Source: a virus
IMG/VR virus record: IMGVR_UViG_3300045995_000108
Location: 1 to 64,000 of that record
DNA: 64,000 nucleotides
Direction: 5' to 3' (one strand)
Position 1 is the first letter of the stretch. Each line of letters begins with the position of its first letter. Positions 1 through 60,405 of the stretch are shown in pieces. Position numbers and translations under genes: made by a program. A model generated the notes under the pieces. That model had not been told where the DNA came from and searched no databases. It saw nothing but the letters and a program-made list of their open reading frames with translations.

Positions 1-1500
1 TGTGCGATTTTAGGTTTAGGTGAAATATTTTTTACTTTGTACACTACTATGGTAGGTGGGTATACTACACTAGGACATATTTATAAGGTGTTAGGTTATT
101 TGTTTATATACAAGGCGTTAGTATCGCAAGCATTTGAAGAGCCATATGATGAGCTTGCAGACTCTCACTTGCGTATATCACAGTTGGTAAACTATGACGA
201 GTTAACAGGAATACCAAATAAACAATTGTTCAGGGAACGTGTAGAGCAGGCTATAAAATTGTCAGAACGAACTGAGCAAAGCTTTGCGTTATTTTTCTTA
301 GATCTTGACAATTTTAAGAACGTAAATGACACAATGGGGCATTATGCTGGAGACATTTTGCTGAAGGAAATTAGCAATCGGCTGCAAAATACTATTCGTG
401 ACTGCGACACCGTAGCCAGGGTTGGGGGTGATGAGTTTGTATTATTGGTCCAAAATGTAAACCATGCTGGTGCCACTGTAGTTGCAAAAAATATTATAGA
501 AGCTGTATCTGCACCGTTTACTGTAAACAACAATATCCTACTAAGTACCCCGTCAATAGGAATTTCAATATTTTGGAACGACGGCAGAGATTTTGACACG
601 TTATATCAACACGCAGACACCGCAATGTACACTGCTAAGAATCTTGGCAAGAATAATTATGCATTTTTTACGCAGGCAGTCCAAGACAAGATAGAACGAT
701 CCATGTCTATCGAATCGCATCTTCGAAATGCCATTGCTAACAATGAATTAAGTTTACATTACCAGCCACAGATATCATTGACTACCAATGAGTTAGTCGG
801 TGCAGAAGCTTTATTACGTTGGAACAGTCCTGTACTTGGTATCATGTCACCAGGCGATTTTATTCCTATTGCTGAAAAAACAGGTTTAATAGCTTCAATT
901 GGAAGTTGGGTAATAAGTACAGCTATAGCGCAGATTAAACAATGGGAAGACATAGGCCTTAAAACTGGTAATATTTCAATTAACATCTCAGCAGTGCAAT
1001 TTAACGATCCTAAACTTGCCGAGAAAATATTACAAGAGATAGCAGACTCGAATATAAAACTAACTACGCTAAGTGTTGAACTGACAGAAAGCGTGGCAAT
1101 GAACTTAGGGTCTAATGTTTTTAACATTATGGACAAGCTGCACCGAAATGACATTATGATTAGCATTGACGACTTTGGCACGGGATACTCATCATTGAGC
1201 GTACTTAAGAAGTTTAACATTTCTAAGATAAAGATTGACCAATCTTTTGTACGTGATCTTACAGTAGGTGAAAATGATTCTGCGATAGTTGCCGCAATTA
1301 TTAATATGGCTACAAGCTTAGGGTTCTCCACTATCGCAGAAGGAGTAGAGACATTAGAGCAAGCTACAATACTTAAACAGCTAGGGTGTGCTGAAATTCA
1401 AGGGTACCTAGTCAGTAGAGCTGTGACTGCTGCCAAATTTGAACAATTGGCTAGATATTATGAATCCACCAGTGGGGATACGATTAGTGGTCTTTTGTGA
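1..1500 (+). CDS. Diguanylate cyclase/phosphodiesterase (GGDEF-EAL) with probable MASE3 membrane sensor; 5' truncated by window edge
   Basis: Intact GGDEF (ARVGGDEF), EAL (GAEALLRW) and DDFGTGYSS motifs. Frame is open from base 1 (CAILGLGEIFFTLY...LGHIYKVLGYLFIYKAL), which resembles the MASE3 C-terminus. Confidence 0.92.
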   Translation, partial: CAILGLGEIFFTLYTTMVGGYTTLGHIYKVLGYLFIYKALVSQAFEEPYDELADSHLRISQLVNYDELTGIPNKQLFRERVEQAIKLSERTEQSFALFFLDLDNFKNVNDTMGHYAGDILLKEISNRLQNTIRDCDTVARVGGDEFVLLVQNVNHAGATVVAKNIIEAVSAPFTVNNNILLSTPSIGISIFWNDGRDFDTLYQHADTAMYTAKNLGKNNYAFFTQAVQDKIERSMSIESHLRNAIANNELSLHYQPQISLTTNELVGAEALLRWNSPVLGIMSPGDFIPIAEKTGLIASIGSWVISTAIAQIKQWEDIGLKTGNISINISAVQFNDPKLAEKILQEIADSNIKLTTLSVELTESVAMNLGSNVFNIMDKLHRNDIMISIDDFGTGYSSLSVLKKFNISKIKIDQSFVRDLTVGENDSAIVAAIINMATSLGFSTIAEGVETLEQATILKQLGCAEIQGYLVSRAVTAAKFEQLARYYESTSGDTISGLL

Positions 1501-1547
1501 CAATCCCATCTCCAATAACATTACAAAAGTTAGTTGTAAATACTGAT

Positions 1548-1658
1548 ATGATGAAAATATTAAAAACAATTATAGATATGGCACTGCCGATTGCTATTGC
1601 AGCGGGAATGATCACGCTATTAGTCGCAGTGATCCAAAGCATTCAGTCGCTACTTTAA
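1548..1658 (+). CDS. Small hydrophobic protein (36 aa)
   Basis: Read by hand: MMKILKTIIDMALPIAIAAGMITLLVAVIQSIQSLL; TAAATA box just upstream. Confidence 0.45.
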   Translation: MMKILKTIIDMALPIAIAAGMITLLVAVIQSIQSLL

Positions 1659-2107
1659 CGAGCGTCTGGCCAGTCTTTTAAATACTTACGTATAACGAGA
1701 TCAGAGCGTATTAGCTGAATCATCTTCTTGGACGCAATGTCCAATGAAGGAGACTTCAAATCAGTCTCCTTAGAGTTAGCTAATGTAAGCAGTTTTTCCT
1801 CTGGCTCAAAATTTGGAGGTAATGTCATTGCTGCTAGGTCCCACATTGGAAACTGCAAATCAGTAACAATTTCATACTCCACTATGTTGCACTCTGTGTG
1901 ACGTTTGTCATTGACAATTTTCTTGTACAGTGCGTTTACATTTGCGTGATTGCCTTCTATCGTTTGGAAGTAGAATCCGTGTGTAATAACGAGAAAGGCC
2001 GACAGCTGATGCGTATGATTGTACGTTACCGCAGGCTGTACAAACTCACGGACCGCAGTCATGATGTCTATTGTAGGTTTAGAGATATAAGTCAATCGAA
2101 CTAGCAT
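1655..2107 (-). CDS. BLUF-domain blue-light sensor
   Basis: MLVRLTYIS...N..HQLSAFL...FYFQTIEG..NVNALYKKIVNDKRH...FPMW matches the BLUF consensus, including the catalytic Tyr and Gln; start placed at MLVRL. Confidence 0.88.
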   Translation of the reverse strand: MLVRLTYISKPTIDIMTAVREFVQPAVTYNHTHQLSAFLVITHGFYFQTIEGNHANVNALYKKIVNDKRHTECNIVEYEIVTDLQFPMWDLAAMTLPPNFEPEEKLLTLANSKETDLKSPSLDIASKKMIQLIRSDLVIRKYLKDWPDAR

Positions 2108-2156
2108 TTCGTACTTATAGCGTAAACCATTATTGCAAACAGCGCATAAATACCTG

Positions 2157-2744
2157 ATGCTTATTAAAGAATTACTAGTAGAACGAGTCATCAATGCTTT
2201 TGATGAAAAGACAAAGCTTCACTACGGACAAGAGGTGTGGGATATTTTACAAAAATCCTATGCCAAAGTCCCAGGTGGCTTTGGTTCCGCGGACGACATT
2301 CTTGACCTAATTCAAAAGGGTGACCTCTGGAAGCTTATAACCCGTAACGGTAAGGTTACCGCAGTAGGCATTTATCGTGATCAGTATGGACGCAAAGCTA
2401 TTGCATCTGGAACTGACGGATCTCGCCAAGGACTGATGGACTATAAGATGATTAAAGGCGAAGATCAAAAGTTTCAGCGCTCATGGGCTGAAGTCTCGGG
2501 CAAGCCCGAGGCCGCGATGGTTAAAGCAGGGTTCAAACCACTACCGCATAAGTTCGCAGCAATACTATGCAAGAAGCCAATCATTGAGTTGAACCCAGAT
2601 GGTTATCACTATTCTCGTATGATTGCTGGCGGATTGCACGAAAAGATCATTTATGGCTCAGTTAAAGTTACGCCAGAACTAGCGCATCAGTTAGCTGCTA
2701 TGGGCATTCATTTGCACGAATTGCCATTACAGTTTAAGTCGTAA
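2157..2744 (+). CDS. Hypothetical phage protein, late-expressed (possible head-internal protein)
   Basis: ATAAATA at 2146-2152 immediately upstream; N-terminus MLIKELLVE. Confidence 0.7.
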   Translation: MLIKELLVERVINAFDEKTKLHYGQEVWDILQKSYAKVPGGFGSADDILDLIQKGDLWKLITRNGKVTAVGIYRDQYGRKAIASGTDGSRQGLMDYKMIKGEDQKFQRSWAEVSGKPEAAMVKAGFKPLPHKFAAILCKKPIIELNPDGYHYSRMIAGGLHEKIIYGSVKVTPELAHQLAAMGIHLHELPLQFKS

Positions 2745-3290
2745 CTATCCATTAAGCCCAATTAGCGTAGTTACCGTTTTAAGTTGAGCTTAACGCTCAA
2801 CTGCTCTTCGCTTGCGCTCGAGCCCTATTCTCCATACAGTGATATCTATTCTAGAGACTATGTTTCTATGGTAACCTGATGAATAACATTCCCATAGATT
2901 CAGTCATAATTTGCCTGGGCAAGGCAAATGTATGTGAAAACTTCCCATGAGTTCTTTGGACCATACTGTATAAAAGAGATTCGTTATCGGAACGACGGAG
3001 GCGGTTGACCGGTACCCCCTACTCTAGATTTGACTGTCAGCGGTGGCCATCATAATCCCCTACAGCGAAACTATGACGACGTGTGGTTGTAACTGTTTCA
3101 ACAGAGCCACATCTTTTAGATACTTACGTTGTATCCTGCCGAGTACCACCCAAGAATCCGTAGGCATGCGAAAGCAGAGGCCGCCTCAATGGGGTATAGC
3201 CAAGACGCTATACACTTAGATACTATGTTTTATGTATCCCAGTATGCACTGTAGGCCAAAATAAGTCATTCATTTTGAAATGAATAAATG
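2741..3290. ncRNA. Putative large structured non-coding RNA (class not assigned)
   Basis: No ORF >=60 aa in 2745-3399; more than 10 local and long-range stems of 5-9 bp; a GAAA tetraloop; possible pseudoknot (see findings). Confidence 0.55.
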
Positions 3291-3399
3291 GTTGATTTGT
3301 TCTAAACAACTTTACATTATAGTCGTACCATAGTGCGTGACATTACTGACTGTCTTGTTGTATAATAACTAAATATTAGTACATAAAGGAGCGTACCCG

Positions 3400-5343
3400 A
3401 TGACGATTGCCAATTTGTTCAAGAAGAACTTCGACAAAACAGTTTCTAAGTCAATGACTATTGATGAATACTTGGAACTATGTAAGACAGATAAAATGGC
3501 CTATGCTACAGCCAGTGAACGAATGGTAGCAGCAATCGGTGAGCCGACACTGGTGGATACATCAAAAGATGCAAGATTGTCTCGCATTTTCAGTAATCGC
3601 ACTGTTCGTATCTACCCAGGTTTCAAAGACTTTTACGGCATGGAAGATGCAGTTGAGCGCATCGTTGGCTACTTCCGCCAAAGCGCACAAGGACTAGAAG
3701 AACGCAAGCAGATTTTGTATTTGCTTGGTCCAGTAGGCGGCGGTAAATCGTCCCTTGCAGAAAAGCTAAAAGAATTGATTGAGAAGAATCCTATCTATGT
3801 GCTCGCCACAGAAGCAGGCGAATTGTCTCCTGTGTTCGAATCCCCATTGGGATTGTTCGCGACACCAGAGTACGTTGCAATGATTGGCACTGAGTACGGA
3901 ATCGACAAGCGTTATCTCGAAAGCATCATTTCGCCTTGGGCAATGAAACGCCTTGACGAATACGGTGGCGACATTTCCAAGTTCCGTGTCGTTCGTGTTA
4001 TGCCAAACAAGCTGCGCCAAATCGGTGTAATGAAGACCGAACCAGGCGACGAAAACAATCAGGATATCTCCACCCTAGTAGGCAAGGTTGACATCCGCAA
4101 GTTAGAGGATTTTTCCCAAAATGACACAGACGCATATAGCTACTCGGGTGGTCTCAATCGTTCCAACCAAGGCTTACTCGAGTTCGTTGAGATGTTTAAA
4201 GCGCCGATCAAAGTGCTTCACCCTTTACTTACAGCCACACAAGAAGGCAACTACGTCGGCACCGAAGCAATATCGGCAATTCCTTTCCAAGGAATCGTCC
4301 TCGCACACAGTAACGAGTCCGAGTGGACAACGTTTAGAAATAACAAGAACAACGAAGCTTTCCTGGATCGCATATGCGTCATTAAAGTCCCATATAGCCT
4401 TCGTGTTACGGAAGAACAAAAGATTTACGAAAAAATGATCACCGGCTCGGGGTTATCTGCTGCACCCTGCGCTCCACAGACGATTGAGATGATGGCACAA
4501 TTCTCGGTTCTAACACGTTTGTACGACCATGAAAACAGCAATTTGTACAGTAAGATGCGAGTATACGATGGACAAAACATCCGTGAACAAGATCCAAAAG
4601 CAAAGAGCATTCAAGAATATCGTGACGTAGCAGGCGTAAACGAGGGCATGGAAGGAATTTCAACACGCTTTGCGTATAAGATTCTGTCCAAAGTATTCAA
4701 CTACACACCAGAAGAGATCGCAGCTGATCCCGTCCATCTAATGGTGATACTTGAAGACTCCATCAAGCGTGAACAGTTTGGTGACGACCGTGAATCAAAG
4801 TACCTTGGCTTCATTAAGAGCGACCTCGCTCCTAAGTACGCAGAGTTCCTTGGTAACGAGATTCAAAAGGCATATTTGGAATCCTATGGCGAGTACGGAC
4901 AAAACTTGTTCGACCGTTACGTAGACTTTGCTGATTCGTGGATTCAAGACATTGAGTTCAAGGACCCAGACACTGGCTTGATGATGGATCGCAAGATGCT
5001 GAACGAAGAACTTGAGAAGATTGAAAAGCCAGCAGGCATTGCCAATCCTAAGGACTTCCGCAATGAGATCGTTACGTTCTGTCTACGTGCCCGTGCCAAG
5101 GTAGAGAACGCAGGTAAGAACCCAGCATGGACAAGTTATGCTATCCTGCGCGACGTAATTGAAAAGAAGATGTTCTCCCAAGTTGAGGACTTACTTCCTG
5201 TCATCTCCTTTGAAGGTAAGAAGGACAAGGACCTTGAGAAGAAACACAACGACTTTATAGCACGTATGTCCGAGCGTGGATACACACCTAAACAAATTCG
5301 TAGACTGTGCGATTGGTATCAACGAGTTCGTAAGAGCAGCTAA
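3400..5343 (+). CDS. prkA: PrkA/YeaG family AAA+ serine protein kinase
   Basis: Walker A GPVGGGKS; TEPGDENNQDISTLVGKVDIRKLE; EFVEMFKAPIKVLHPLLTATQEGNY; 647 aa; AAGGAG RBS. Confidence 0.96.
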   Translation: MTIANLFKKNFDKTVSKSMTIDEYLELCKTDKMAYATASERMVAAIGEPTLVDTSKDARLSRIFSNRTVRIYPGFKDFYGMEDAVERIVGYFRQSAQGLEERKQILYLLGPVGGGKSSLAEKLKELIEKNPIYVLATEAGELSPVFESPLGLFATPEYVAMIGTEYGIDKRYLESIISPWAMKRLDEYGGDISKFRVVRVMPNKLRQIGVMKTEPGDENNQDISTLVGKVDIRKLEDFSQNDTDAYSYSGGLNRSNQGLLEFVEMFKAPIKVLHPLLTATQEGNYVGTEAISAIPFQGIVLAHSNESEWTTFRNNKNNEAFLDRICVIKVPYSLRVTEEQKIYEKMITGSGLSAAPCAPQTIEMMAQFSVLTRLYDHENSNLYSKMRVYDGQNIREQDPKAKSIQEYRDVAGVNEGMEGISTRFAYKILSKVFNYTPEEIAADPVHLMVILEDSIKREQFGDDRESKYLGFIKSDLAPKYAEFLGNEIQKAYLESYGEYGQNLFDRYVDFADSWIQDIEFKDPDTGLMMDRKMLNEELEKIEKPAGIANPKDFRNEIVTFCLRARAKVENAGKNPAWTSYAILRDVIEKKMFSQVEDLLPVISFEGKKDKDLEKKHNDFIARMSERGYTPKQIRRLCDWYQRVRKSS

Positions 5344-5355
5344 CAAAGGCGGCAC

Positions 5356-6639
5356 ATGGCAAATATAATTGACCGCCGCCTTAACCCAAAAGACAAACAG
5401 ATCAAGAATCGTCAGAAGTTTGTCCAGCGGTCCCGCGAGCAGATTAAAAAAGCTGTAAAGGATTCCATTGACTCTGGTAACATAGCTGACATTGAAGATG
5501 GTAAAGCTAAGATCAAAGTCAAAGGCATTGGAGAGCCAACTTTTGGTACAGACCCTAAAACAGGCGACAAGAAATATGTCATGCCTGGTAATAAGGAGTT
5601 TGTGCAAGGTGACAAACAAGACAAGCCACCAGAGGAAGAAGGCGGTGGTGGCACTGCCGGAGGACTAGGCACAAGTGAAGACGATTTTGAGTTTGTACTT
5701 AATCCTGAAGAGTATCTTAACTTCATCTTTGACGACCTTGAGCTGCCTGATCTAATCAAGAAGCAAATGAAGGACGTTACCAAGGTAAAGCCTAAACGTG
5801 CTGGCTTCTCCAACGCAGGCAACCCAGCTCAGCTTGATGTCGTTCGCTCCCTAAAGAACAGCATGGGACGCCGCATTGGCTTATCGCGCCCCAAGAAGAA
5901 AGACATTGAAGCACTAGAAGCAGAGATTCTTGAACTTGAAGCTGTAATGAGTGGTAACCCATTCAACAGTGCCGCTAATGCTCGTTGGAAGATAGCGACA
6001 GAAGAACTTGCTGCAATGCGTAAGCGTATGCACGCCGTGCCTTGGATGGACCCGTTTGATATCCGCTACCGTGCGTTCACTATGCAGCCACAGCCAATGA
6101 CCAAAGCAGTAATGTTCTGTGTCATGGACGTATCTGGTTCTATGGGACAACGCGAGAAGGATCTTGCTAAACGCTTTTTCTTCTTCTTGCATATGTTCCT
6201 CCGCCGCAAGTACGAGAAGGTAGAGATCATCTTCATTAAGCACCACGAAACAGCATACGAAGTTTCTGAAGACGACTTCTTCCACAGTAAAGACAGCGGT
6301 GGTACGGTTGTGTCTGGTGCGCTGGAACTAACAACTAACATTCTCAAAGAGCGTTACAATCTAAACGATTGGAACATCTATGTTGCTCAAGCAAGCGACG
6401 GCGACAACTATGCCGCAGACCACGACAAGTCCCTTAACTGTATGCACGCCTTATTGCCTCTTGTGCAATATTTTGCGTATGTAGAGATTGGTCGTGCATA
6501 CGGTACAGCAAGGGCGACAGACTTGTGGGATACTTATCAGCAGTTGCGCGAAGAGTATCACCAGCTTAACATGCGGGTTGTGCAGGATAAGAAAGATATC
6601 TGGAAAGTATTTAAAGAGCTATTCTCTAAGGAACATTAA
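5356..6639 (+). CDS. yeaH: YeaH/YhbH (DUF444) vWA-like protein
   Basis: IIDRRLN N-terminus, AVMFCVMDVSGSM, GGTVVS and YVAQASDGDN motifs; directly follows prkA. Confidence 0.95.
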   Translation: MANIIDRRLNPKDKQIKNRQKFVQRSREQIKKAVKDSIDSGNIADIEDGKAKIKVKGIGEPTFGTDPKTGDKKYVMPGNKEFVQGDKQDKPPEEEGGGGTAGGLGTSEDDFEFVLNPEEYLNFIFDDLELPDLIKKQMKDVTKVKPKRAGFSNAGNPAQLDVVRSLKNSMGRRIGLSRPKKKDIEALEAEILELEAVMSGNPFNSAANARWKIATEELAAMRKRMHAVPWMDPFDIRYRAFTMQPQPMTKAVMFCVMDVSGSMGQREKDLAKRFFFFLHMFLRRKYEKVEIIFIKHHETAYEVSEDDFFHSKDSGGTVVSGALELTTNILKERYNLNDWNIYVAQASDGDNYAADHDKSLNCMHALLPLVQYFAYVEIGRAYGTARATDLWDTYQQLREEYHQLNMRVVQDKKDIWKVFKELFSKEH

Positions 6640-8087
6640 TGTCCAAATTACTATATGATAGCGACGACTGGTCGTTTGAACGTCTAGGCATTGTAGAAGA
6701 TGCAATTAAAGAGATAGCATACGACGAGTTGAACCTTGACGTCTATCCTAACCAGATTGAGATCATCTCCTCTGACCAAATGCTTGAGGCATACGCAAGC
6801 ATTGGTCTCCCACTGATGTACGATCACTGGAGTTTTGGTAAATCGTTCATCCAGCAAGAGCAATCGTATCGCAAAGGCCACCAAGGGCTTGCATACGAGA
6901 TTGTTATTAACAGTTCGCCTTGCATCTCCTACTTGATGGAGGAAAATTCCATGACAATGCAAGCATTGGTTATTGCTCATGCTTGTTACGGACACAATCA
7001 CTTCTTCAAGAACAACTACTTGTTCAAGCAATGGACTGATGCAGAGGGCATCCTTGACTACTTACAGTTTGCAAAGAACTATGTTGCAAAATGCGAAGAG
7101 AAGCATGGACGTCAAGCAGTAGAGGATACACTGGATGCCTGCCACGCTATTATGGACTACGGCGTTGATCGTTACAAGCGCCCAAGTAAGTTGAGCAAAG
7201 CTGCTGAAATGGAAGCACAAGAGCAACGTGCAGAGCGTGTACAACGCGAGGCAAATGAATTGTGGTCCACGATACCCAAGAAAGACAAAAAGGATGAGAA
7301 GGTTGTTAAGACATTTCCGTCTGAGCCACAAGAGAACCTTATGTACTTCATTGAGAAGCACAGTCCTGTTCTTGAATCGTGGCAACGTGAGTTGGTGCGT
7401 ATTGTACGTAAGACAGCACAATACTTTTATCCGCAACGGCAAACACAAGTGATGAACGAAGGTTGGGCCAGCTTTACACATTACTTTATTATGAACCGTC
7501 TGTGGGAAAAAGGACAAATCAGTGATGGCAACATGATGGAGTTCTTGCACTCGCACTCTGGGGTGTTGACGCAAAGGAAATTCAATGACAAACACTACTC
7601 CGGATTTAATCCTTATGCTATTGGGTTTGATCTCTATACTGATATTCGCCGTATATGCTCCGAACCCACCAAAGAAGATGAAGAGTTCTTTCCGCACCTG
7701 GTGGGTCAACCTTGGCTTCCCACTTGTCTTGACGCTGTGCGTAATTATCGTGATGAAAGCTTCATTTCACAGTTTCTGAGCCCACACCTAATTCGCAAGT
7801 GGGGATTGTTTGAGATTACAAACAAGGCTGCTGACAAGCATGTAACCATCTCCAACATTCAAGATGCTCGTGGGTACAATGCAGTACGCCAAAGCCTTGC
7901 ACAACAATATTCCGCAACATCACGCCAGCCGGACATTCAAGTCGTGGATGCTAACTTGCGTGGCAACCGCGAGTTGAAGCTGCAATACACATCACGCAAT
8001 GGCGCAAAGCTAAACAAGGACAAGGACAAAGTATTGTCCCACATTGGTAAGCTTTGGGGACACACTGTAACGATGTCTGACAAGTGA
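6639..8087 (+). CDS. ycgB: SpoVR/YcgB family protein
   Basis: HWSFGK, GLAYEIVINSSPCISYLMEEN, HACYGHNHFFKNN, QVMNEGWASF; canonical third gene of the prkA-yeaH-spoVR trio. Confidence 0.95.
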   Translation: MSKLLYDSDDWSFERLGIVEDAIKEIAYDELNLDVYPNQIEIISSDQMLEAYASIGLPLMYDHWSFGKSFIQQEQSYRKGHQGLAYEIVINSSPCISYLMEENSMTMQALVIAHACYGHNHFFKNNYLFKQWTDAEGILDYLQFAKNYVAKCEEKHGRQAVEDTLDACHAIMDYGVDRYKRPSKLSKAAEMEAQEQRAERVQREANELWSTIPKKDKKDEKVVKTFPSEPQENLMYFIEKHSPVLESWQRELVRIVRKTAQYFYPQRQTQVMNEGWASFTHYFIMNRLWEKGQISDGNMMEFLHSHSGVLTQRKFNDKHYSGFNPYAIGFDLYTDIRRICSEPTKEDEEFFPHLVGQPWLPTCLDAVRNYRDESFISQFLSPHLIRKWGLFEITNKAADKHVTISNIQDARGYNAVRQSLAQQYSATSRQPDIQVVDANLRGNRELKLQYTSRNGAKLNKDKDKVLSHIGKLWGHTVTMSDK

Positions 8088-8141
8088 TTTGACACTTAAT
8101 TCACCTTAATGTACACTGTAGCTATAGAAGGAGTAACGGTT

Positions 8142-8657
8142 ATGAAAAAAGGTGAAATGCTTGCAAAGATGTTGGTAATTGCTACCAACGCCCACGCTGG
8201 TCAGTTTGATAAGGGTGGAAATCCGTATATTTTGCACCCCTTGAAAGTGATGCACTATCTCAAGAGTGATGACGAGGAACTGCAATGTATTGCACTGGGA
8301 CACGATGTAATTGAAGATTGCAGCGGCAAGAAGATCTTTGTTGATGGGGAAGAAAAAGAAATCAGCTACTCAATGTTCCGCGAAGAAGGCATTAGCGAAC
8401 GGGTTATTGACGGCATTAAGGGAATGACAAAGGTTCCTGGACAAACGTACGAAGAATACAAAGAAGGCGTGTTTGACAATGTTGACAGCATGAAGGGCAA
8501 AATGGCTGACTTGCGTCACAACAGCGATATCCGCCGTCTCAAGGGTGTTACTGAAAAGGACGTTGCCCGTATTGCAAAGTACATGAAGTTTTACAGCGAA
8601 ATTCAAGCAAAGCTGGCAGAAACTGCAACTGTTTTGAAATCCAAAAAAGTACATTGA
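8142..8657 (+). CDS. HD-domain hydrolase, RelA/SpoT-type (small alarmone hydrolase-like)
   Basis: AHAGQFDKGGNPYILHP, ALGHDVIED, KMADLRHN; AAGGAG RBS. Confidence 0.85.
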   Translation: MKKGEMLAKMLVIATNAHAGQFDKGGNPYILHPLKVMHYLKSDDEELQCIALGHDVIEDCSGKKIFVDGEEKEISYSMFREEGISERVIDGIKGMTKVPGQTYEEYKEGVFDNVDSMKGKMADLRHNSDIRRLKGVTEKDVARIAKYMKFYSEIQAKLAETATVLKSKKVH

Positions 8658-12730: not shown

Positions 12731-13612
12731 ATGACTACTTTACCCTTTGCTGGTTCAGCATCAATCAATGATGCAAGTACACTGGCATTATTGGATGCCA
12801 TTAAATTAAATGTAACCCCACCACCCATCTCTGCGTTTTTAACAGATTACCGGAAATGGGTGGCTTCGTCATCATCCAATACTATGGATGGATTTGACCT
12901 CTTTTCTGTTGCTGAATACTGCAATGGGTCCACAGAGGCATTTGACAAATTCTACATTAGAAATCATTCTCGCAGATTTAGAATATTCCGTGGTGAATAT
13001 CTGTATCATGCAATGACATGGCTTGATTGCAAACACGATTGGAAGTATGTTGAGGATGGCCCACTTGAAGAAAATGATGCATTGCTGGTGAGTGTGCCTT
13101 TTGCTGGTACAGGTAATGTTCACGAACAATTTGACGAAGTAATGGAGGAATGCGGGAGATTGTATATCCCTGTTTTAGTAGACTGCACATACTTTGGTAT
13201 TTGCTCTAACGTCCATTTTAACTTTGACCATAGTGCAATTAAAGAAGTGGTGTTTAGTTTGTCTAAAGTATTTCCCATTTCTAAGATGCGAGTTGCAATG
13301 CGACTTTCTGCTGGTGATTTTGATGATGGCATTAGCGCTTACAACAAAATTGGGTATGTTAATGAATATAGTGCCGCAATTGGCCATCAGTTCATTCAGG
13401 CATTTGGCCCTGATTATATTCCCACTAAATACAAAGACGCTCAACAAGAGTTTTGTGCGTTTCTAAATGTTGCACCAAGCAATACAGTAATTTACGGAAT
13501 TGGCGACGATAACTGGGCCGCGTATAAGCGTGGGATTCGAGAGAACGACACTAACCGCCTAAGCTTCCACCGCTTCCTGCACGACAAACAAAAATTTTAC
13601 GATGCTATATAA
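12731..13612 (+). CDS. PLP-dependent aminotransferase-like protein
   Basis: NGSTEAF, VLVDCTY and FSLSK (PLP lysine) pattern of fold-type I enzymes. Confidence 0.65.
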   Translation: MTTLPFAGSASINDASTLALLDAIKLNVTPPPISAFLTDYRKWVASSSSNTMDGFDLFSVAEYCNGSTEAFDKFYIRNHSRRFRIFRGEYLYHAMTWLDCKHDWKYVEDGPLEENDALLVSVPFAGTGNVHEQFDEVMEECGRLYIPVLVDCTYFGICSNVHFNFDHSAIKEVVFSLSKVFPISKMRVAMRLSAGDFDDGISAYNKIGYVNEYSAAIGHQFIQAFGPDYIPTKYKDAQQEFCAFLNVAPSNTVIYGIGDDNWAAYKRGIRENDTNRLSFHRFLHDKQKFYDAI

Positions 13613-14654
13613 CGCGACCTTTTTAGAATGGGAAATCACATCTGCATGTAATGCATCGTGCCCACAATGCCCACGTAATTACTATGGTGGCAAAACGTGG
13701 CATACGCTACCAATAGTGCAAGTTGACAGACAATGGGCAGAAGAACATCTGTCAATTGGGTTCATTGAGTCACTAACACATATTGATTTCTGTGGTACTT
13801 ACGGTGACCCTATCATGAATAACAACTTGATAGACATAGTTGAGTGGTTACAATCAGTTAACCCATCAGTGTACATAACAATAAAAACAAATGGTGGCAT
13901 TCGCAATGCCAATTGGTGGGCAAAATTAGGAAGTATCTTAAATGGTGCAGTTTATTTTGCATTGGATGGATTAGCAGACACTAATCATTTATACCGTCGT
14001 GGTGTAATTTTTGATGACGTGATCGTAAATGCACAAGCTTTCATGGCGGCAGGCGGTACTGCGCATTGGGCATACATCGTATTCAAGCACAACCAGCATC
14101 AAGTTGAAGAAGCAAGAGCAATGGCAGCTACCCTTGGGTTCACAGACTTCAATGTAAAGCTGACTAGCAGATTTTTTGATAAAAAGCATGTACTCACTGA
14201 TTCACTTGAAGTCAATGATGCAATTCCGTATACGATTTCAATTCCTGACAATGTAATGTATGTAAACAAGTCATACCAAAAAATCAACTTGGTGGGCAAA
14301 GACTATGCAGCCACCTCAACCATTAATTGCAAATTTAAACAGTTGAATCGTGTGTACTTATCTGCAGAAGGTTATGTTTTTCCGTGCGGGTGGTTGCATG
14401 ACAGGATGTACGGATTTGAAGCAGAGCAGCATCCAGATCACGAAAAACTATTTGCATTATTTGACATCGCTGGTGGCAAAGAGATGTCAAATGTTAACCA
14501 CACACCAATTGAGCAAATCGTTCATGGCAAGTGGTTTGAAACGCTGGAAGCAAGTTGGACAAACGACAATCGCTTGCACCGCTGCGGAATGATGTGCGGG
14601 GAAAAAGTGGATATCATAAAGGACCAAAACAAGCATATACGATTTGACAGTTAA
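13602..14654 (+). CDS. Radical SAM protein with SPASM/twitch-like C-terminal domain
   Basis: CNASCPQC (CxxxCxxC), GTYGDP, TNGG, LDGL, GYVFPC, C-terminal CxxxC. Confidence 0.9.
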   Translation: MLYNATFLEWEITSACNASCPQCPRNYYGGKTWHTLPIVQVDRQWAEEHLSIGFIESLTHIDFCGTYGDPIMNNNLIDIVEWLQSVNPSVYITIKTNGGIRNANWWAKLGSILNGAVYFALDGLADTNHLYRRGVIFDDVIVNAQAFMAAGGTAHWAYIVFKHNQHQVEEARAMAATLGFTDFNVKLTSRFFDKKHVLTDSLEVNDAIPYTISIPDNVMYVNKSYQKINLVGKDYAATSTINCKFKQLNRVYLSAEGYVFPCGWLHDRMYGFEAEQHPDHEKLFALFDIAGGKEMSNVNHTPIEQIVHGKWFETLEASWTNDNRLHRCGMMCGEKVDIIKDQNKHIRFDS

Positions 14655-14697: not shown

Positions 14698-16104
14698 ATG
14701 AACGTCCCGTTTAAGATTTTGGCAGAGATTGCTGCAACAGACAGCAAAAACGAAAAGCAAGCAATTATCAAGCGCGAAGCAGTAGCGGGGAACGACGAGT
14801 TCTTCCGCGGTTTGCTTGGCACTTTTGACCCTATGATTACATACGGCGTCAAGAAGATTGAAGAAGCAGTTAAGGACGGCCCAGGCCTCCTACCCAACAC
14901 ATTTTGGGGTCTTGCAAAGGACCTCGCAGACCGCAAGCTGACAGGTAATGCTGCTCAACTCGCAATCAACCACGCCCGTATCAAATCCACCGTTGCAGAA
15001 TGGAACGGCTGGTATCGTCGCATTTTGATGAAGGACTTGAAGGCAGACTTCAGTGAGTCCACAGTCAACAAAGTTTGCGAAAAAGACTTCCCCAAGTACG
15101 TTGTCCCAGTGTTCAAGTGCCAGTTAGCAACTGACTGCGTTGACGACGAAGGCAACGTTGCAGAAGATCTGCTGACTGGCAAAAAGCAAATTGACGTCAA
15201 ATTGGACGGTATGCGTGTTCTCACTATCGTGAGCCCAGACGGGCAAGTGGATCAATTCTCCCGCAATGGCAAGGAACTGCTTAACTTTGGTCTGGTCAAA
15301 GAACAGATTGCAAAGCACGCCGTTTTCTTCAAGGAAGTAATGGTGCTGGACGGCGAGATTATGTCCGCCTCCTTCCAAGACTTGATGAAGCAAGCACGCC
15401 GCAAGACAGACGTGCAAGCTGACGACTCCGTGTTGAACCTGTTTGATATCATCCCTCTCCGTGAGTTCAAGTTGGGCAAGGGCACTGTCCCGCAAGAAAT
15501 GCGCACCGTGATACTTAACCAATGGTTTGCTCCGCTTGAAGAAAAGATGCCCAATGTTACTGTAGTTGGCACAGAACTTGTGGACCTTGACACAGTTGAA
15601 GGTCAAAACCGTTTGTCTGAGATCAACAAGGCTGCACTGCTTGGCAAGTACGAAGGCATCATGCTCAAGGACCCAAAAGCTGTATACGAGTGCAAGCGAG
15701 CAATGAACTGGTTGAAGATGAAGCCGTTCATTGAAGAGTCGCTTACCGTTGTGGATGTAGAAGAAGGCAAGGCAGGCTCCAAGTTTGAAGGTACTATGGG
15801 TGCGCTGGTTTGCCAAGATATGGTAGGCGACAAGCTGGTCCGTGTCAACGTTGGCGGTGGCTACTCCATCCGTCTCCGTGCTCAACTTTGGGCACGCCAC
15901 ACAGGCAAGGAAGTTTCCTGGAAGAAGAAAGTGGGCAAGGAATGGGTTACACTGGTTGAGCGTCCCGTTGGTGGCCCAGTGCTTGGACTGATTGCTGAAG
16001 TTCGTGCTGATGCACTTACAAAGAGCGAATCCAACGATACTTGGTCCATGCGTTTCCCGCGCTTCAAAACATTCCGTGGCACTGTAGCAGGTGAAAAACT
16101 GTAA
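14698..16104 (+). CDS. ATP-dependent DNA ligase (T4 gp30-like)
   Basis: Motif I KLDG, LDGE, EGIMLK, WLKMK, RFPRF. Confidence 0.95.
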   Translation: MNVPFKILAEIAATDSKNEKQAIIKREAVAGNDEFFRGLLGTFDPMITYGVKKIEEAVKDGPGLLPNTFWGLAKDLADRKLTGNAAQLAINHARIKSTVAEWNGWYRRILMKDLKADFSESTVNKVCEKDFPKYVVPVFKCQLATDCVDDEGNVAEDLLTGKKQIDVKLDGMRVLTIVSPDGQVDQFSRNGKELLNFGLVKEQIAKHAVFFKEVMVLDGEIMSASFQDLMKQARRKTDVQADDSVLNLFDIIPLREFKLGKGTVPQEMRTVILNQWFAPLEEKMPNVTVVGTELVDLDTVEGQNRLSEINKAALLGKYEGIMLKDPKAVYECKRAMNWLKMKPFIEESLTVVDVEEGKAGSKFEGTMGALVCQDMVGDKLVRVNVGGGYSIRLRAQLWARHTGKEVSWKKKVGKEWVTLVERPVGGPVLGLIAEVRADALTKSESNDTWSMRFPRFKTFRGTVAGEKL

Positions 16105-58290: not shown

Positions 58291-58821
58291 TTAGCGTTTC
58301 CATTCAGCGTAGATTCTATTGTTTGTGTCCCATACACATTCTACTAACTTAAACCCAAACTTGTCAGATAATCGCACATGCTCTTCCACAGTCCAAGGAT
58401 AGAAGTTGATGTCTTGACATTCAACGTTTAGGTGATCCTTGCTACCTGGGTTGCAGCGCCAATAGATTCTAGCTTTGTCGGTTAACAGTGATACTACTTT
58501 AGTAGTTTGTCTTTCAACATCCTCTACTGTGCCAAAATTGATAGAGCCTAAGCAAAATGCAACATCAAACTTCTTGTTCGTTTGGAGGTCGTCGATTCCT
58601 ACTTTCATATCAGCTTGGTCAAATGCAGGGTCAATGCCAAATAGATTTGGTATCAAACCTTTGAACGGATTTGCTCCGCAGCCAACGTCAATTACGGACT
58701 CACCGTAGTTAACTTTTTTAACCAGCGCGAGGCCAGATTTTTCGTATTGCGCTAGTGAGCCGTTTTTACGGTACCAGATGGTACCAAAGTAATGGTTGAG
58801 ATATTCTTGATTTACAGTCAT
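58291..58821 (-). CDS. Class I SAM-dependent methyltransferase-like protein
   Basis: VIDVGCG, GID, FDVAFCLGSINF. Confidence 0.7.
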   Translation of the reverse strand: MTVNQEYLNHYFGTIWYRKNGSLAQYEKSGLALVKKVNYGESVIDVGCGANPFKGLIPNLFGIDPAFDQADMKVGIDDLQTNKKFDVAFCLGSINFGTVEDVERQTTKVVSLLTDKARIYWRCNPGSKDHLNVECQDINFYPWTVEEHVRLSDKFGFKLVECVWDTNNRIYAEWKR

Positions 58822-58860
58822 GATTTAGTGTATAATGTAATTAACTATGTATTTATTTCT

Positions 58861-60318
58861 ATGGACATCTACTTAAACTATCTTCCCTACGTGCTTGCTG
58901 GTACGTTGTACGGATTCATATTCGGGCTCATTCCTGTAGCAGGTGCACTAACTGGGCTAATCACCATTTACGGATTCATTGACGTATTTCATAACTCACC
59001 CTACGGATTGGTTGTGTTTACCACCGCCCTAGTTGTCAGTTGTAGCATAGGTGACTTATTCTCGTCTATCGTTATGAACATTCCCGGTGCTGCGGGCAGT
59101 GCAGCAACAATGGTAGATGGGTTTCCAATGTCTAAGAAAGGACAAGCGGCAAGGGCACTTAGCGCAGGTATCTTCTCTAGCGTGGGGCAAGGTGCAATCT
59201 GGGGCATACTCGTTTTTGCTTTCCTTCCGTACTATGCGCCTGTGGTGTTAAGTTTTGGTATACCAGAAATGCTGTGCTTCCTAATACTTGCAATGACTTG
59301 CGTTACCTTTATCAACAGTCATTATTGGGTGCGTGGACTTATTGCATTGGCCGCAGGCATCTTTGTTGGGCTAATTGGTATGGACCCAAACACAGGTGCA
59401 GCACGATTTACGGGTGGCTGGTACTACTTACAAGATGGTGTTCAGATTGTCCCTATTTTGGCAGGCTTCCTGGCTATACCAGAATTGCTAGAAGCACTGT
59501 ACTTTCAAGTCAAACACATCCCACCACCAAAGGATACATGGGAACAGATTAAGCAAGGTATGCGTGATGCGTGGCGTTACAGAAATGACAGTGCAAGGGC
59601 AGGATTGATTGGTGGTGTGATTGGTTTACTGCCTGGCATTGGTGGTAGCATTGTGGATTGGCTAGCGTATGGGCAAACATGTGCACTAGCGAAGAACGAC
59701 AAGATTCCGTTTGGCGAAGGTAATGTGCGTGGTGTAGTGGGAGCAGAGGGTGCGGGTATGGCACAGAAGGCAACTGCTTATGTCCCCACAGTTTTGTTTG
59801 GTGTCCCAGCAGCGCCGTTTGAAGTTATCATCATGTCACTGTTCATGATGGTAGGGTTGGAAATGGGATCAGTGCAGTTACTCACTGATAGGACGTTCTT
59901 TAATGCGCTAAGTTATGGTTACATGGTAAGCCTTGTACTTACATTCTTCATATCTATCGTGTTCATTAAGTATGCGTCAGGCATAACAAAAGTGCCCATG
60001 AAGTATTATTTCATCCCTATCCTGGGCGTAATTGTGTGGTCGTCCGTGCAGTACACAGGTGGGTGGGAAGACTATGTCATCCTTGCAATTTGCTCTGCCC
60101 TGGGTATGTTATTCAAGCACTTTAAATTTAGCCGTGCATGTCTTATCGTGGGTGTTGTATTGGCAGGTAGATTGGAAAAGACATCAATTCAGTTTAATAC
60201 ACTGTACACCTGGCAAGAAGTTATTACTCGTCCTATTGCAATGGGCTTGCTTGCATTTACTTTGGTTGCCATAGTCTATGGGATATTTTTCAGTAAGTCT
60301 AAGATAAGCTACACATAA
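58861..60318 (+). CDS. Tripartite tricarboxylate transporter TctA-like membrane subunit
   Basis: GLIP, NIPGAAGSAATMVDGFPMSKKGQAARAL, GLLPGIGG, FGEGNVRGVVGAE. Confidence 0.88.
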   Translation: MDIYLNYLPYVLAGTLYGFIFGLIPVAGALTGLITIYGFIDVFHNSPYGLVVFTTALVVSCSIGDLFSSIVMNIPGAAGSAATMVDGFPMSKKGQAARALSAGIFSSVGQGAIWGILVFAFLPYYAPVVLSFGIPEMLCFLILAMTCVTFINSHYWVRGLIALAAGIFVGLIGMDPNTGAARFTGGWYYLQDGVQIVPILAGFLAIPELLEALYFQVKHIPPPKDTWEQIKQGMRDAWRYRNDSARAGLIGGVIGLLPGIGGSIVDWLAYGQTCALAKNDKIPFGEGNVRGVVGAEGAGMAQKATAYVPTVLFGVPAAPFEVIIMSLFMMVGLEMGSVQLLTDRTFFNALSYGYMVSLVLTFFISIVFIKYASGITKVPMKYYFIPILGVIVWSSVQYTGGWEDYVILAICSALGMLFKHFKFSRACLIVGVVLAGRLEKTSIQFNTLYTWQEVITRPIAMGLLAFTLVAIVYGIFFSKSKISYT

Positions 60319-60405
60319 ATACTTGGCTTGCACAGTAAGTACACTCAACACCAAGGTTGCGAGAGTACAGTTATTAACCAAGCTGACACTTCAAAAGGAA
60401 AAATC

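What the first reader, a model, noticed from the sequence alone, without database searches (positions are those of the whole stretch)
2741..3290. ~550-nt ORF-free, extensively paired region with a possible pseudoknot: candidate large ncRNA
Seen: by far the longest non-coding gap in a very dense genome. Stems: GTAACTA/TAGTTAC (2741/2768), AGTTGAGC/GCTCAACT (2782/2795), ATACAGT/ACTGTAT (2834/2965), TCTATGG/CCATAGA (2865/2892), ATTTGCCT/AGGCAAAT (2909/2922), GTGTGGTT/AGCCACAT (3081/3105), TGC-GAAA-GCA (3167), GTATAGC/GCTATAC (3194/3207), CCTACAG/CTGTAGG (3059/3249). GAGGCGG(2998)/CCGCCTC(3181) and TACCCC(3013)/GGGGTA(3191) occur in crossed order, which is pseudoknot topology; the latter competes with the 3194 hairpin. 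G-U pairs mildly favour the + strand. I see no tRNA, tmRNA or RNase P hallmarks. Inference: a large ornate phage RNA (GOLLD/ROOL size class), a regulatory leader for the prkA operon, or a structured replication origin.
Basis: partly seen in the sequence, partly recalled or inferred. Interest (0 to 1): 0.78.

Follow-up and report, generated by a model that had tools for sequence, protein, structure and literature searches.

The report
Orphan twin-box phage RNA gene
The gene-free gap holds a real, intricately folded non-coding RNA gene on the opposite strand from the one proposed; it is a very divergent, nuclease-less copy of a widespread giant-phage RNA family whose first third was catalogued in 2010 and whose job is still unknown.

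Summary
The gap 2745-3399 is the longest ORF-free stretch of the window. It encodes a structured non-coding RNA.

- **Homology.** A profile built from 39 homologues, without the window, hits 2807-3216 at E = 2.7e-26. The invariant 23-nt core occurs in at least 119 IMG/VR phage contigs.
- **Structure.** On a 36-sequence alignment, 48 of 76 pairs show compensatory changes. None of 500 shuffles reaches this.
- **Strand.** The evidence is GNRA loops, 281 G·U against 27 A·C cells, and the strand of Rfam RF01718 matches in bridging relatives.
- **Family.** It belongs to the "twin-box", extended Polynucleobacter-1 family. Relatives sit directly behind a 142-aa GIY-YIG gene. RF01718 models only their first third and does not score this copy.
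- **This copy.** It is the most divergent found (86 bits). It has no nuclease gene. It has a candidate promoter of its own, back-to-back with the prkA promoter. It keeps the invariant core and two identical 7-nt boxes (AUGGGAA).
- **Rejected readings.** It is not a prkA leader and not a replication origin.
- **Function.** Unknown. My best guess is a trans-acting RNA whose two boxes are read by one partner.

This scan met the same family before on other genomes.

The parts
3316..3343 (-). Candidate sigma-70-type promoter of the RNA: -35 ATGTCA at 3343-3338, 16-nt spacer, -10 TATAAT at 3321-3316. It stands back-to-back with the prkA promoter (GTGACA-18-TATAAT, 3337-3366, plus strand) and shares its -35 region.
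   Evidence: 10 of 12 matches; coordinates. As many consensus matches are expected by chance in this region (3 found, 2.9 in shuffles), so this is a candidate only.
3268..3285 (-). A-U-rich hairpin in the leader, specific to this window (AUUCAUU-UCAA-AAUGAAU). It lies between the candidate start near 3309 and the start of family homology near 3222.
   Evidence: No comparative support.
2803..3222 (-). Body of the RNA that is homologous to the twin-box / extended Polynucleobacter-1 family.
   Evidence: nhmmer profile built without the window: 2807-3216, E = 2.7e-26, 86 bits, model positions 37-405 of 411. Alignments A1 and A2.
3194..3213 (-). First hairpin: GUAUAGC (3213-3207) with GCUAUAC (3200-3194).
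   Evidence: 7 of 7 pairs. In the family, 5 of 6 pairs of this hairpin carry compensatory changes (helix 1).
3149..3193 (-). Helix S2: CCCA (3193-3190) with UGGG (3152-3149). It encloses the local hairpin UGC-UUUC-GCA (3176-3167).
   Evidence: (helix 2: 4 of 4 pairs covary). In canonical members the enclosed hairpin carries a U-GNRA-UAC loop, which this copy lacks.
3119..3135 (-). Hairpin hpB: GAUAC (3135-3131) with GUAUC (3123-3119), loop AACGUAA. The family has UUGCU-AACUUAA-GGCAA, so all five pairs are exchanged while the loop is kept.
   Evidence: (helix 5).
3082..3111 (-). Helix H4: UGUGG (3111-3107) with CCACA (3086-3082), and the inner CUGU/ACAG (3104-3101 with 3096-3093).
   Evidence: (helices 6 and 7).
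3052..3074 (-). Helix X: AUAGUUUC (3074-3067) with GGGAUUAU (3059-3052). Three of its pairs are G·U, so it can form only on the minus strand.
   Evidence: helix 8: 97% of cells paired, 7 of 10 pairs covary, G·U dominant.
2965..3066 (-). Pseudoknot H3: the loop of helix X, GCUGUA (3066-3061), pairs with UACAGU (2970-2965).
   Evidence: helices 9 and 10; 3-4 covarying pairs; 6 of 6 pairs in the window.
2975..3025 (-). Helix H6: AGAG (3025-3022) with CUCU (2978-2975). It encloses the core and helix H2.
   Evidence: helix 11: UA 20, AU 14, GC 2 at the outer pair. A natural variant contig in run X8 carries A2975T together with T3025A.
2997..3019 (-). Invariant core hairpin: GGGGG-UAC-CGG-UCAA-CCG-CCUCC.
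   Evidence: At least 119 exact matches in IMG/VR. It never varies in A2. In more distant relatives the closing helix covaries: GUGG/CCAC, GGGGG/CCCCC, AGAGG/CCUCU.
2981..2995 (-). Hairpin H2: UCGUU (2995-2991) with AACGA (2985-2981), loop CCGAU. Most relatives have a GNRA tetraloop here.
   Evidence: (helix 14).
2942..2948 (-). Twin box, first copy on the RNA: AUGGGAA preceded by CUC.
   Evidence: The family pattern CUC-N7 ... UCU-N7 is shown.
2909..2929 (-). Hairpin hpA between the two boxes: AUUUGCC (2929-2923) with GGCAAAU (2915-2909).
   Evidence: (helix 15). The family has UUCACC/GGUGAA, so the window's pairs are compensatory.
2889..2895 (-). Twin box, second copy: AUGGGAA preceded by UCU.
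2826..2888 (-). Insertion found only in this window. Its CCAUAGA (2871-2865) pairs with UCUAUGG (2898-2892), which overlaps the second box.
   Evidence: insert states in the profile alignment; 7 of 7 pairs. No comparative support.
2803..2823 (-). Helix P1: GCUC (2823-2820) with GAGC (2806-2803).
   Evidence: (helix 16: 6 of 6 pairs covary in the family).
2782..2802 (-). Terminal hairpin P0: AGUUGAGC-GUUAA-GCUCAACU. It stands directly after P1 in all subfamilies and is the probable 3' end or terminator, possibly working in both directions.
   Evidence: In canonical members the loop reads UNCG on the other strand, so which transcript it belongs to is not settled.

Best explanation
The gap carries, on the minus strand, a gene for a structured non-coding RNA. 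The RNA is about 440 nt long if it starts where family homology starts (near 3222), or about 530 nt if it starts at the candidate promoter (near 3309). It ends near 2780.

**Identity.** It is a highly divergent, 'orphan' member of the twin-box RNA family of uncultured T4-like giant phages. That family is the full-length form of the Rfam motif Polynucleobacter-1 (RF01718), which models only the 5' third.

**Shown here**
- Homology to the family.
- A multi-helix fold with one pseudoknot, kept by compensatory changes.
- An invariant core hairpin.
- Two identical 7-nt boxes (AUGGGAA), preceded by CUC and by UCU. No consistent partner for them was found inside the RNA.
- Minus-strand polarity.
- No nuclease gene next to it, unlike the relatives.

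**Inferred**
- It is transcribed leftwards from its own sigma-70-type promoter, which diverges from the prkA promoter.
- It ends at the P0 hairpin.

**Most likely mode of action** (inference; I put it at about 30-35%). It is a trans-acting RNA whose rigid knotted scaffold presents the two identical boxes to a single reader. The invariant core would then be the functional centre. Because this copy persists without the GIY-YIG gene, the RNA does not need that gene in cis.

The confidence of 0.8 is for identity, fold and strand, not for the mode of action.
For: **Homology**
- The core 23-mer has at least 119 exact matches in IMG/VR.
- The profile built without the window hits 2807-3216 at E = 2.7e-26. 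It is the only hit in the 115-kb record.

**Structure** (alignment A2)
- 93.4% of cells are paired, against 82.8% in shuffles and about 42% with slid partners.
- 48 of 76 pairs carry compensatory changes, against 26.9 in shuffles and 14-25 with slid partners. None of 500 shuffles reaches the observed value.
- The window's own helices were checked base by base.

**Strand**
- The H2 loop reads GNRA on minus in about 75 of 94 sequences (GAAA, GCAA, GUAA, GCGA, GGAA).
- The S3 loop reads U-GNRA-UAC in 83 of 94.
- G·U 281 against A·C 27 cells on minus.
- RNAalifold gives -181 kcal/mol on minus against -153 on plus.
- RF01718 matches of 80-114 bits lie directly 5' of my profile's matches and on the strand opposite to the profile's orientation, in L223, L232, L236, L269 and L287.

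**Twin boxes**
- They are identical at the aligned positions in 90 of 94 unique members. The window and L113 are also identical after a small shift of register.
- They stay identical through unrelated words: AGAUGAU, GGAUAAU, AGCAGAA, ACAUGAU, and AUGGGAA in the window.
- No consistent complement exists inside the RNA.

**Ongoing selection on this copy**
- The variant contig in run X8 carries the compensatory pair A2975T + T3025A.
- Its other differences fall in loops and linkers, and both boxes are untouched.

**Expression hint**
- A 232-nt contig of a peat metatranscriptome covers 2835-3063 with 3 differences.

**Promoter**
- ATGTCA-16-TATAAT on the minus strand.

**Context in relatives**
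- A 142-aa SegE-like GIY-YIG gene ends 13-20 nt before the RNA.
- There is none in this record.
Against: - Function is untested.
- The RNA contig cannot show strand or ends, and it may be DNA carried over into the library.
- The promoter match is no better than chance for this A+T-rich stretch.
- No canonical terminator was found on either strand.
- This copy scores lowest of all members (86 bits). It lacks the GNRA loops of H2 and S3 and carries a 60-nt insertion that could cover part of the second box. A decaying copy is therefore not excluded.
- The RF01718 model itself finds nothing here, even at E <= 10.
- The record is only about 29% of the genome, so a canonical copy with its nuclease gene may lie elsewhere in the same phage.
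Confidence: 0.8

Rival explanations
1. A decaying remnant. The RNA gene was relocated or lost its nuclease partner and is drifting. It is still recognisable but no longer functional.
For: - It has the lowest profile score of all members: 86 bits, against 139-400 for the others.
- The GNRA loops of H2 and S3 are lost.
- There is a window-specific insertion at 2826-2888.
- No GIY-YIG gene is present in the record.
Against: - Every family helix is kept by compensatory changes; hpB has all 5 pairs exchanged.
- The two boxes are still identical, although they differ completely from those of other members.
- The core is untouched.
- A sister variant shows a compensatory double change, with its other differences confined to loops.
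- Near-identical copies occur in at least 7 metagenome runs.
Confidence: 0.1
2. A plus-strand RNA: the 3' UTR of the 203-aa gene, or a long regulatory leader of the prkA-yeaH-spoVR operon.
For: - All neighbouring genes are on the plus strand.
- The single-sequence folding z-score is slightly better on plus, -2.6 against -1.8.
- The P0 loops of canonical members read UNCG on that strand.
- The window's own S3 hairpin has a GAAA loop on plus.
Against: - The GNRA statistics, helix X and the G·U counts favour minus.
- The strand of the RF01718 matches in bridging members favours minus.
- prkA has its own promoter at 3337-3366, only about 35 nt before its start codon.
- 80 phage prkA loci lack the element.
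- The family occurs in unrelated gene contexts.
Confidence: 0.05
3. A DNA-level element. The conserved core would be a recognition or homing site for the neighbouring nucleases, or the region would be a replication origin, and the RNA fold would be incidental.
For: - The core is 100% identical at the DNA level across very divergent members.
- Different nuclease families sit next to the element: GIY-YIG alone, GIY-YIG with NUMOD3, and PDDEXK. This is what free-standing homing endonucleases do beside conserved targets.
Against: - 48 of 76 pairs change in a compensatory way.
- The loop identities (GNRA) and the G·U asymmetry are RNA-level signals.
- There is no skew inflection, and I saw no repeats other than the two boxes.
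- A nuclease target site could coexist with an RNA gene, but it does not explain the fold.
Confidence: 0.04
4. An RNA partner of the nuclease, acting as guide, scaffold or inhibitor. This copy would serve a nuclease encoded elsewhere in the unsampled 70% of the genome.
For: - The RNA and the nuclease gene are adjacent and co-directional, 13-20 nt apart, in roughly 100 loci and across subfamilies.
- The boxes vary like guide sequences, always in step.
Against: - No nuclease gene lies within 115 kb here.
- The partner enzymes belong to unrelated folds.
- 7 nt is short for a guide.
- The complement of the box is not enriched near the locus.
- The complement does not occur twice anywhere else in two complete genomes.
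- No binding test is possible with these tools.
Confidence: 0.12

Closest known systems
Polynucleobacter-1 RNA motif (Rfam RF01718; Weinberg et al. 2010, Genome Biol 11:R31, PMC2864571)
   Same: - It is the same RNA family by transitive homology. In L223, L232, L269, L287 and L236 the RF01718 model scores 80-114 bits directly 5' of a match to my profile of the window's family, on the same transcript. L236 scores 80 bits with RF01718 and 116 bits with my profile.
- Those RNAs have the same core hairpin and the same CUC-N7 / UCU-N7 twin boxes.
- The flanks printed in the 2010 seed alignment show AACUC-AGCGAAA and AAUCU-AGCGAAA.
- The paper says the motif lies downstream of one small gene family. 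Here that gene is the 142-aa GIY-YIG gene.
   Different: - RF01718 models 141 positions, only the 5' third. The core, the pseudoknot and the twin boxes are not catalogued.
- The model does not detect this window at E <= 10.
- It does not detect the large subfamily with the exact core either: one match of 7.2 bits (E 0.76), away from the element, in 45 related records.
- This copy has no upstream nuclease gene.
GOLLD and ROOL large phage-associated RNAs
   Same: The same size class: 400-800 nt, ornate, pseudoknotted, encoded by phages, function unknown. This comparison rests on my own knowledge of those families.
   Different: - No Rfam model matches the window at E <= 10.
- No tRNA genes are nearby.
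- The conserved core and the architecture are different.
Guide or bridge RNAs of mobile-element enzymes (OMEGA/HEARO RNAs of IscB, IS110 bridge RNA)
   Same: A structured RNA encoded next to a small DNA-cutting enzyme, with short variable segments set in a conserved scaffold. This is an analogy from my own knowledge.
   Different: - No homology.
- The partner enzymes here are GIY-YIG or PDDEXK nucleases, not RuvC/HNH enzymes or DEDD recombinases.
- The two variable segments are identical to each other and only 7 nt long.
- No target was found.
- This copy has no enzyme gene.

Membership tests
Polynucleobacter-1 (RF01718) | The covariance model scores at or above its gathering threshold of 37 bits | tested here: not met
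   - No match in the window's 115-kb record, even at E <= 10.
- None in cmscan of 2600-3500 at E <= 10.
Polynucleobacter-1 (RF01718) | Homology to RNAs that the model does recognise | tested here: met
   - My profile of the window's family hits L236 (E 1.8e-34) and L223, L232, L269 and L287 (E about 5e-12), next to RF01718 matches of 80-114 bits on the same transcript.
- The same profile, built without the window, hits the window at E = 2.7e-26.
Polynucleobacter-1 (RF01718) | Lies directly downstream of one small gene family (GOS11034 in the 2010 paper; the 142-aa SegE-like GIY-YIG gene here) | tested here: not met
   - Relatives meet it.
- In the window the sequence upstream of the RNA is the prkA promoter region.
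- PF19835 has no match in the record. The record is about 29% of the genome.
Twin-box RNA (full-length family as defined by this scan; not published) | Core hairpin GGUACCG-NNN-AACCGCC closed by a 4-5 bp helix | tested here: met
   It stands at 2997-3019 on the minus strand and is identical to the canonical core.
Twin-box RNA (full-length family as defined by this scan; not published) | Two identical 7-nt words, one preceded by CUC and one by UCU, on either side of a conserved hairpin | tested here: met
   - AUGGGAA stands at 2948-2942 (after CUC) and at 2895-2889 (after UCU), with hairpin hpA between them.
- The word is not enriched elsewhere in the window.
Twin-box RNA (full-length family as defined by this scan; not published) | The covarying helices P1, hpA, H2, H6, helix X, the H3 pseudoknot, H4, hpB, S2 and the first hairpin | tested here: met
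   All of them form in the window with compensatory sequence.
Twin-box RNA (full-length family as defined by this scan; not published) | GNRA-type loops on hairpins H2 and S3 | tested here: not met
   The window has CCGAU on H2 and UUUC on S3, read on the minus strand. Most relatives have GNRA loops.
tRNA / tmRNA | Recognised by ARAGORN | tested here: not met
   No gene was found in the whole window.
GOLLD, ROOL, group I/II introns, RNase P and all other Rfam 15 families | Match to the family's covariance model | tested here: not met
   - Nothing at gathering scores in the window.
- At E <= 10 over 2600-3500 there are only two chance-level matches outside the element.

The most novel reading that the evidence does not exclude
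The two always-identical boxes are guide segments. The knotted RNA would hold two nucleic-acid strands, or two sites, that share the same 7-nt word and hand them to a small nuclease. That would make it a new kind of RNA-directed DNA or RNA cutting or joining system in giant phages. In this phage the RNA gene would have been uncoupled from the enzyme gene and reprogrammed to a new word (AUGGGAA).
Probability: 0.06. Interest if true: 0.9.

Novelty: new variant of a known kind. Interest (0 to 1): 0.6.

Why it matters
- **An orphan motif gets its full form.** Polynucleobacter-1 has been an unexplained motif since 2010. Here it is shown to be only the front third of a 400-450-nt pseudoknotted RNA. 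The full RNA has an invariant core and two boxes that change together, and it is common in uncultured T4-like giant phages.
- **What this copy adds.** It is the most divergent copy found, and it stands alone with a candidate promoter of its own and no nuclease gene. If it is expressed, the RNA works independently of the nuclease gene in cis.
- **What it offers for experiments.** Its box word (AUGGGAA) and its missing GNRA loops are natural variants that show which features are dispensable.
- **Open questions.** The partner that reads the boxes and the role of the core are concrete, testable questions about a large class of phage RNAs.

Tried and rejected
**Searches for relatives of this copy or its neighbours**
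- DNA search of phage GenBank records with the gap: no match.
- Upstream regions of 80 phage prkA loci: no similarity by blastn or nhmmer.
- Relatives of the 203-aa neighbour: none.
- Close relatives of this particular copy: none in IMG/VR and none in JGI metagenome contigs. A looser pattern returned only canonical members.
- Cellular genomes: the core 20-mer occurs only in two contigs of one Haliscomenobacter MAG, plus two chance matches in G+C-rich DNA.

**RF01718**
- One match of 7.2 bits (E 0.76), away from the element, in 45 records of the exact-core subfamily.
- Nothing in cmscan of 27 loci and one element.
- The link appeared only after I collected members with a variant core.

**Strand**
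- G·U counts on an early helix list were ambiguous: 159 against 86, dominated by two terminal columns. This was settled later.

**Partner of the twin boxes**
- No consistent complement inside the RNA.
- The linkers behind the two boxes do not pair better in native than in mismatched combinations: -5.5 against -5.4 kcal/mol.
- Box variants are independent of the GNRA loop variants.
- The cognate complement is not enriched in 838 kb of flanking DNA.
- The box does not match the start region of the nuclease gene.
- In two complete 337-347-kb genomes the word occurs twice within 61 nt only in the RNA gene itself.
- The word is not enriched in the window.

**Other**
- Terminator scan: none on either strand.
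- RNA run X13 has no contig on the flanking genes. That absence of cover is not evidence.
- Literature: no paper holds the core sequence or links GIY-YIG with a structured phage RNA.
Full report
**1. The observation**

The stretch 2745-3399 lies between the stop codon of a 203-aa ORF (2133-2744; no Pfam or PHROG family) and the start codon of prkA at 3400. It is the longest part of the window without an ORF of 60 aa or more in any frame: 655 nt, against 319 nt for the next longest.

The window is the first 64 kb of a 115-kb IMG/VR virus record that CheckV rates as 29% complete. Almost all long ORFs are on the plus strand. The record carries many host-like genes: GGDEF-EAL, prkA-DUF444-SpoVR, TctA/TctC and a DNA ligase. 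It is a fragment of a giant phage.

Other first checks:
- Folding energy alone is unremarkable: z = -2.6 on plus and -1.8 on minus.
- Rfam 15 finds nothing at gathering scores in the window, and nothing relevant at E <= 10 in 2600-3500.
- ARAGORN finds no tRNA or tmRNA.

**2. Homologues**

The prkA operon of 80 other phage contigs does not carry this sequence upstream. The 203-aa ORF has no relatives.

Around the core the contigs align with the window over about 400 nt.

A profile HMM built from 39 of them, without the window, hits the record once. The hit is at 2807-3216, E = 2.7e-26, 86 bits, covering model positions 37-405 of 411. This is the lowest score among about 120 members, which otherwise score 139-400 bits.

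In cellular genomes the core occurs only in two contigs of one MAG, which look like phage, plus two chance matches. Two complete 337-kb and 347-kb phage genomes hold one copy each.

**3. Structure**

Mutual-information and helix scans on 94 unique sequences recover a set of covarying helices. I tested them on a fresh 36-sequence alignment in RNA sense (A2). The structure has 76 pairs in 17 helices, one of them a pseudoknot.

| Measure | Observed | Shuffled | Slid partners |
|---|---|---|---|
| Cells paired | 93.4% | 82.8% | about 42% |
| Pairs with compensatory change | 48 of 76 | 26.9 | 14-25 |
| Covariation score | 0.311 | 0.131 | 0.05-0.07 |

No shuffle out of 500 reaches any observed value.

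The window forms every one of these helices with its own, often fully exchanged, sequence. Examples:
- hpB is GAUAC/GUAUC where the family has UUGCU/GGCAA, with the loop AACNUAA kept.
- hpA is AUUUGCC/GGCAAAU where the family has UUCACC/GGUGAA.

A natural variant contig in run X8 is about 9% different over 2889-3058. It carries A2975T together with T3025A, the two sides of the outer pair of H6. Its other differences fall in loops and linkers, and both boxes are untouched.

**4. Strand**

My first alignments followed the window's plus strand, and early G·U counts were ambiguous. Notes from earlier agents of this scan described the family as lying behind a nuclease gene, which implied the other strand, so I tested that directly. 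Five lines of evidence agree on the minus strand.

- (a) The H2 loop reads GAAA, GCAA, GUAA, GCGA or GGAA on minus in about 75 of 94 sequences. The 8-nt S3 loop reads U-GNRA-UAC in 83 of 94, with four different GNRA words.
- (b) Helix X is 97% paired on minus, with G·U at four positions. It would be full of A·C mismatches on plus.
- (c) Over the whole structure, G·U cells outnumber A·C cells 281 to 27 on minus. RNAalifold gives -181 against -153 kcal/mol.
- (d) In members with a variant core, Rfam's RF01718 model matches directly 5' of my profile's match. It does so on the strand opposite to the profile's orientation.
- (e) In relatives the RNA then starts 13-20 nt after the stop codon of a co-directional 142-aa gene.

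In the window the RNA therefore runs right to left, antisense to every neighbouring gene.

**5. Ends of the RNA**

A sigma-70-like promoter stands on the minus strand at 3343-3316 (ATGTCA-16-TATAAT, 10 of 12). It is back-to-back with the prkA promoter at 3337-3366. Matches of this quality are expected by chance in this A+T-rich stretch, so it is a candidate only.

Family homology begins near 3222 and ends with P1 (2823-2803). P1 is followed by the hairpin P0 (2802-2782). P0 stands in the same place in all subfamilies and probably marks the 3' end. No canonical terminator was found.

One RNA-library contig from a peat metatranscriptome covers 2835-3063 with three differences. This hints at transcription, but the contig carries no strand information and could be carried-over DNA.

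**6. What family it is**

RF01718 (Polynucleobacter-1) does not match the window. In 45 related records it gives only one match, of 7.2 bits (E 0.76) and away from the element.

I then collected members with a variant core.
- My profile hits 18 of them, over a continuous range from 358 down to 12 bits.
- RF01718 matches five of those at 80-114 bits; its threshold is 37.
- L236 scores well with both models: 80 bits with RF01718, and 116 bits (E 1.8e-34) with my profile.

Those RNAs have the same core hairpin, whose closing helix now covaries: GUGG/CCAC, GGGGG/CCCCC, AGAGG/CCUCU. They also have the same CUC-N7 ... UCU-N7 twin boxes, with other words: AGAUAAU, AGCAGAA, ACAUGAU.

The 2010 paper states that the motif lies downstream of one small gene family and that its 3' half is not always detected. 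The flanks printed in its seed alignment show the words AACUC-AGCGAAA and AAUCU-AGCGAAA.

So the window's RNA belongs to the full-length form of Polynucleobacter-1, of which Rfam models only the first third. The upstream gene of the canonical and RF01718-type members that I checked is a SegE-like GIY-YIG domain protein of 142-152 aa. Divergent members sit behind other genes:
- a PDDEXK nuclease;
- an 81-aa ORF of no known family that itself follows a GIY-YIG-NUMOD3 gene (L113);
- a NUMOD3 protein;
- an unnamed 335-aa protein.

L101, like the window, has no co-directional gene upstream.

**7. The twin boxes**

At the aligned positions the two 7-nt words are identical to each other in 90 of 94 unique members. 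The window and L113 are also identical after a small shift of register.

The two variable positions of the canonical word are among the strongest non-Watson-Crick couplings in the alignment. The variants assort independently of other features, so the identity has been kept through repeated changes.

In the window both boxes read AUGGGAA (2948-2942 and 2895-2889). I found no partner for them:
- none inside the RNA;
- none in 838 kb of flanking DNA;
- none at the nuclease start codon;
- no second paired site in two complete genomes;
- no enrichment of the word in the window.

Something reads both boxes in the same way. What it is remains unknown.

**8. Interpretation**

Established here:
- a real minus-strand gene for a structured RNA;
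- membership of the twin-box / extended Polynucleobacter-1 family;
- an orphan and very divergent state: no nuclease gene within 115 kb, no GNRA loops on H2 and S3, and a 60-nt insertion whose hairpin overlaps the second box.

Inferred:
- its own promoter;
- a 3' end at P0;
- trans action through the two boxes and the invariant core.

Rejected:
- A prkA leader is excluded by strand, by prkA's own promoter and by the element's absence from other prkA loci.
- For an origin there is no skew inflection, and the selection seen is at the RNA level.
- GOLLD, ROOL, introns, RNase P and tmRNA give no match.

Not excluded:
- a decaying copy, although the compensated helices, the identical boxes and the compensatory natural variant speak against it;
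- a role as partner of a nuclease encoded in the unsampled 70% of the genome.

**9. Novelty**

The family is partly catalogued (RF01718, 2010). Its full architecture is not in the literature that I could search. Earlier agents of this scan described the same family on other genomes. I re-derived their main claims here:
- the link to RF01718;
- the twin boxes;
- the pseudoknot;
- the nuclease neighbourhood.

This window adds the most divergent, nuclease-less, antisense-oriented copy.

Noticed in passing
window 1-8657: A phage-borne GGDEF-EAL protein with a MASE3 remnant (1-1500). It is followed by a complete prkA (3400-5343), DUF444/yeaH (5356-6639) and SpoVR (6639-8087) operon, and then by a weak HD-domain ORF (8109-8657). 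At least 235 IMG/VR stretches encode prkA relatives.
   Followed up: partly
L004:7203-7940, L007:7214-8151, L008:5929-6640, L010:5929-6366 and 7622-8119, L021:5926-6665, L029:5866-6608: In several related phage prkA operons, segments of 0.4-0.9 kb are inserted between prkA, DUF444 and SpoVR, which abut in the window. They may be mobile genes or further non-coding elements.
   Followed up: no
L178:1209-1718, L113:2526-3599, L150:3742-4449: Divergent members of the RNA family sit behind other nuclease types instead of the 142-aa GIY-YIG gene: PDDEXK_15, a full-length GIY-YIG-NUMOD3 protein, and a NUMOD3 protein. In L178 and L199 the two boxes are not identical.
   Followed up: partly
L204 and L205 (NZ_JBBAKG010000003.1 and NZ_JBBAKG010000001.1): Two contigs (148 and 183 kb) of one Haliscomenobacter MAG each carry a canonical GIY-YIG gene plus twin-box RNA. 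They are probably giant-phage contigs binned with the bacterium, and perhaps a hint at the host.
   Followed up: no
window 3316-3366: Two sigma-70-like promoters face away from each other and share the -35 region: minus strand ATGTCA-16-TATAAT, plus strand GTGACA-18-TATAAT.
   Followed up: partly
window 58792-61473, 14698-16104, 13602-14654: More host-like genes in the phage fragment: the TctA and TctC tricarboxylate transporter parts, an ATP-dependent DNA ligase, and a weak radical-SAM match.
   Followed up: no
L082-L200, start codons of the 142-aa GIY-YIG genes: These nuclease genes mostly start as ACACATGACATGG, with no visible Shine-Dalgarno sequence before the ATG.
   Followed up: no
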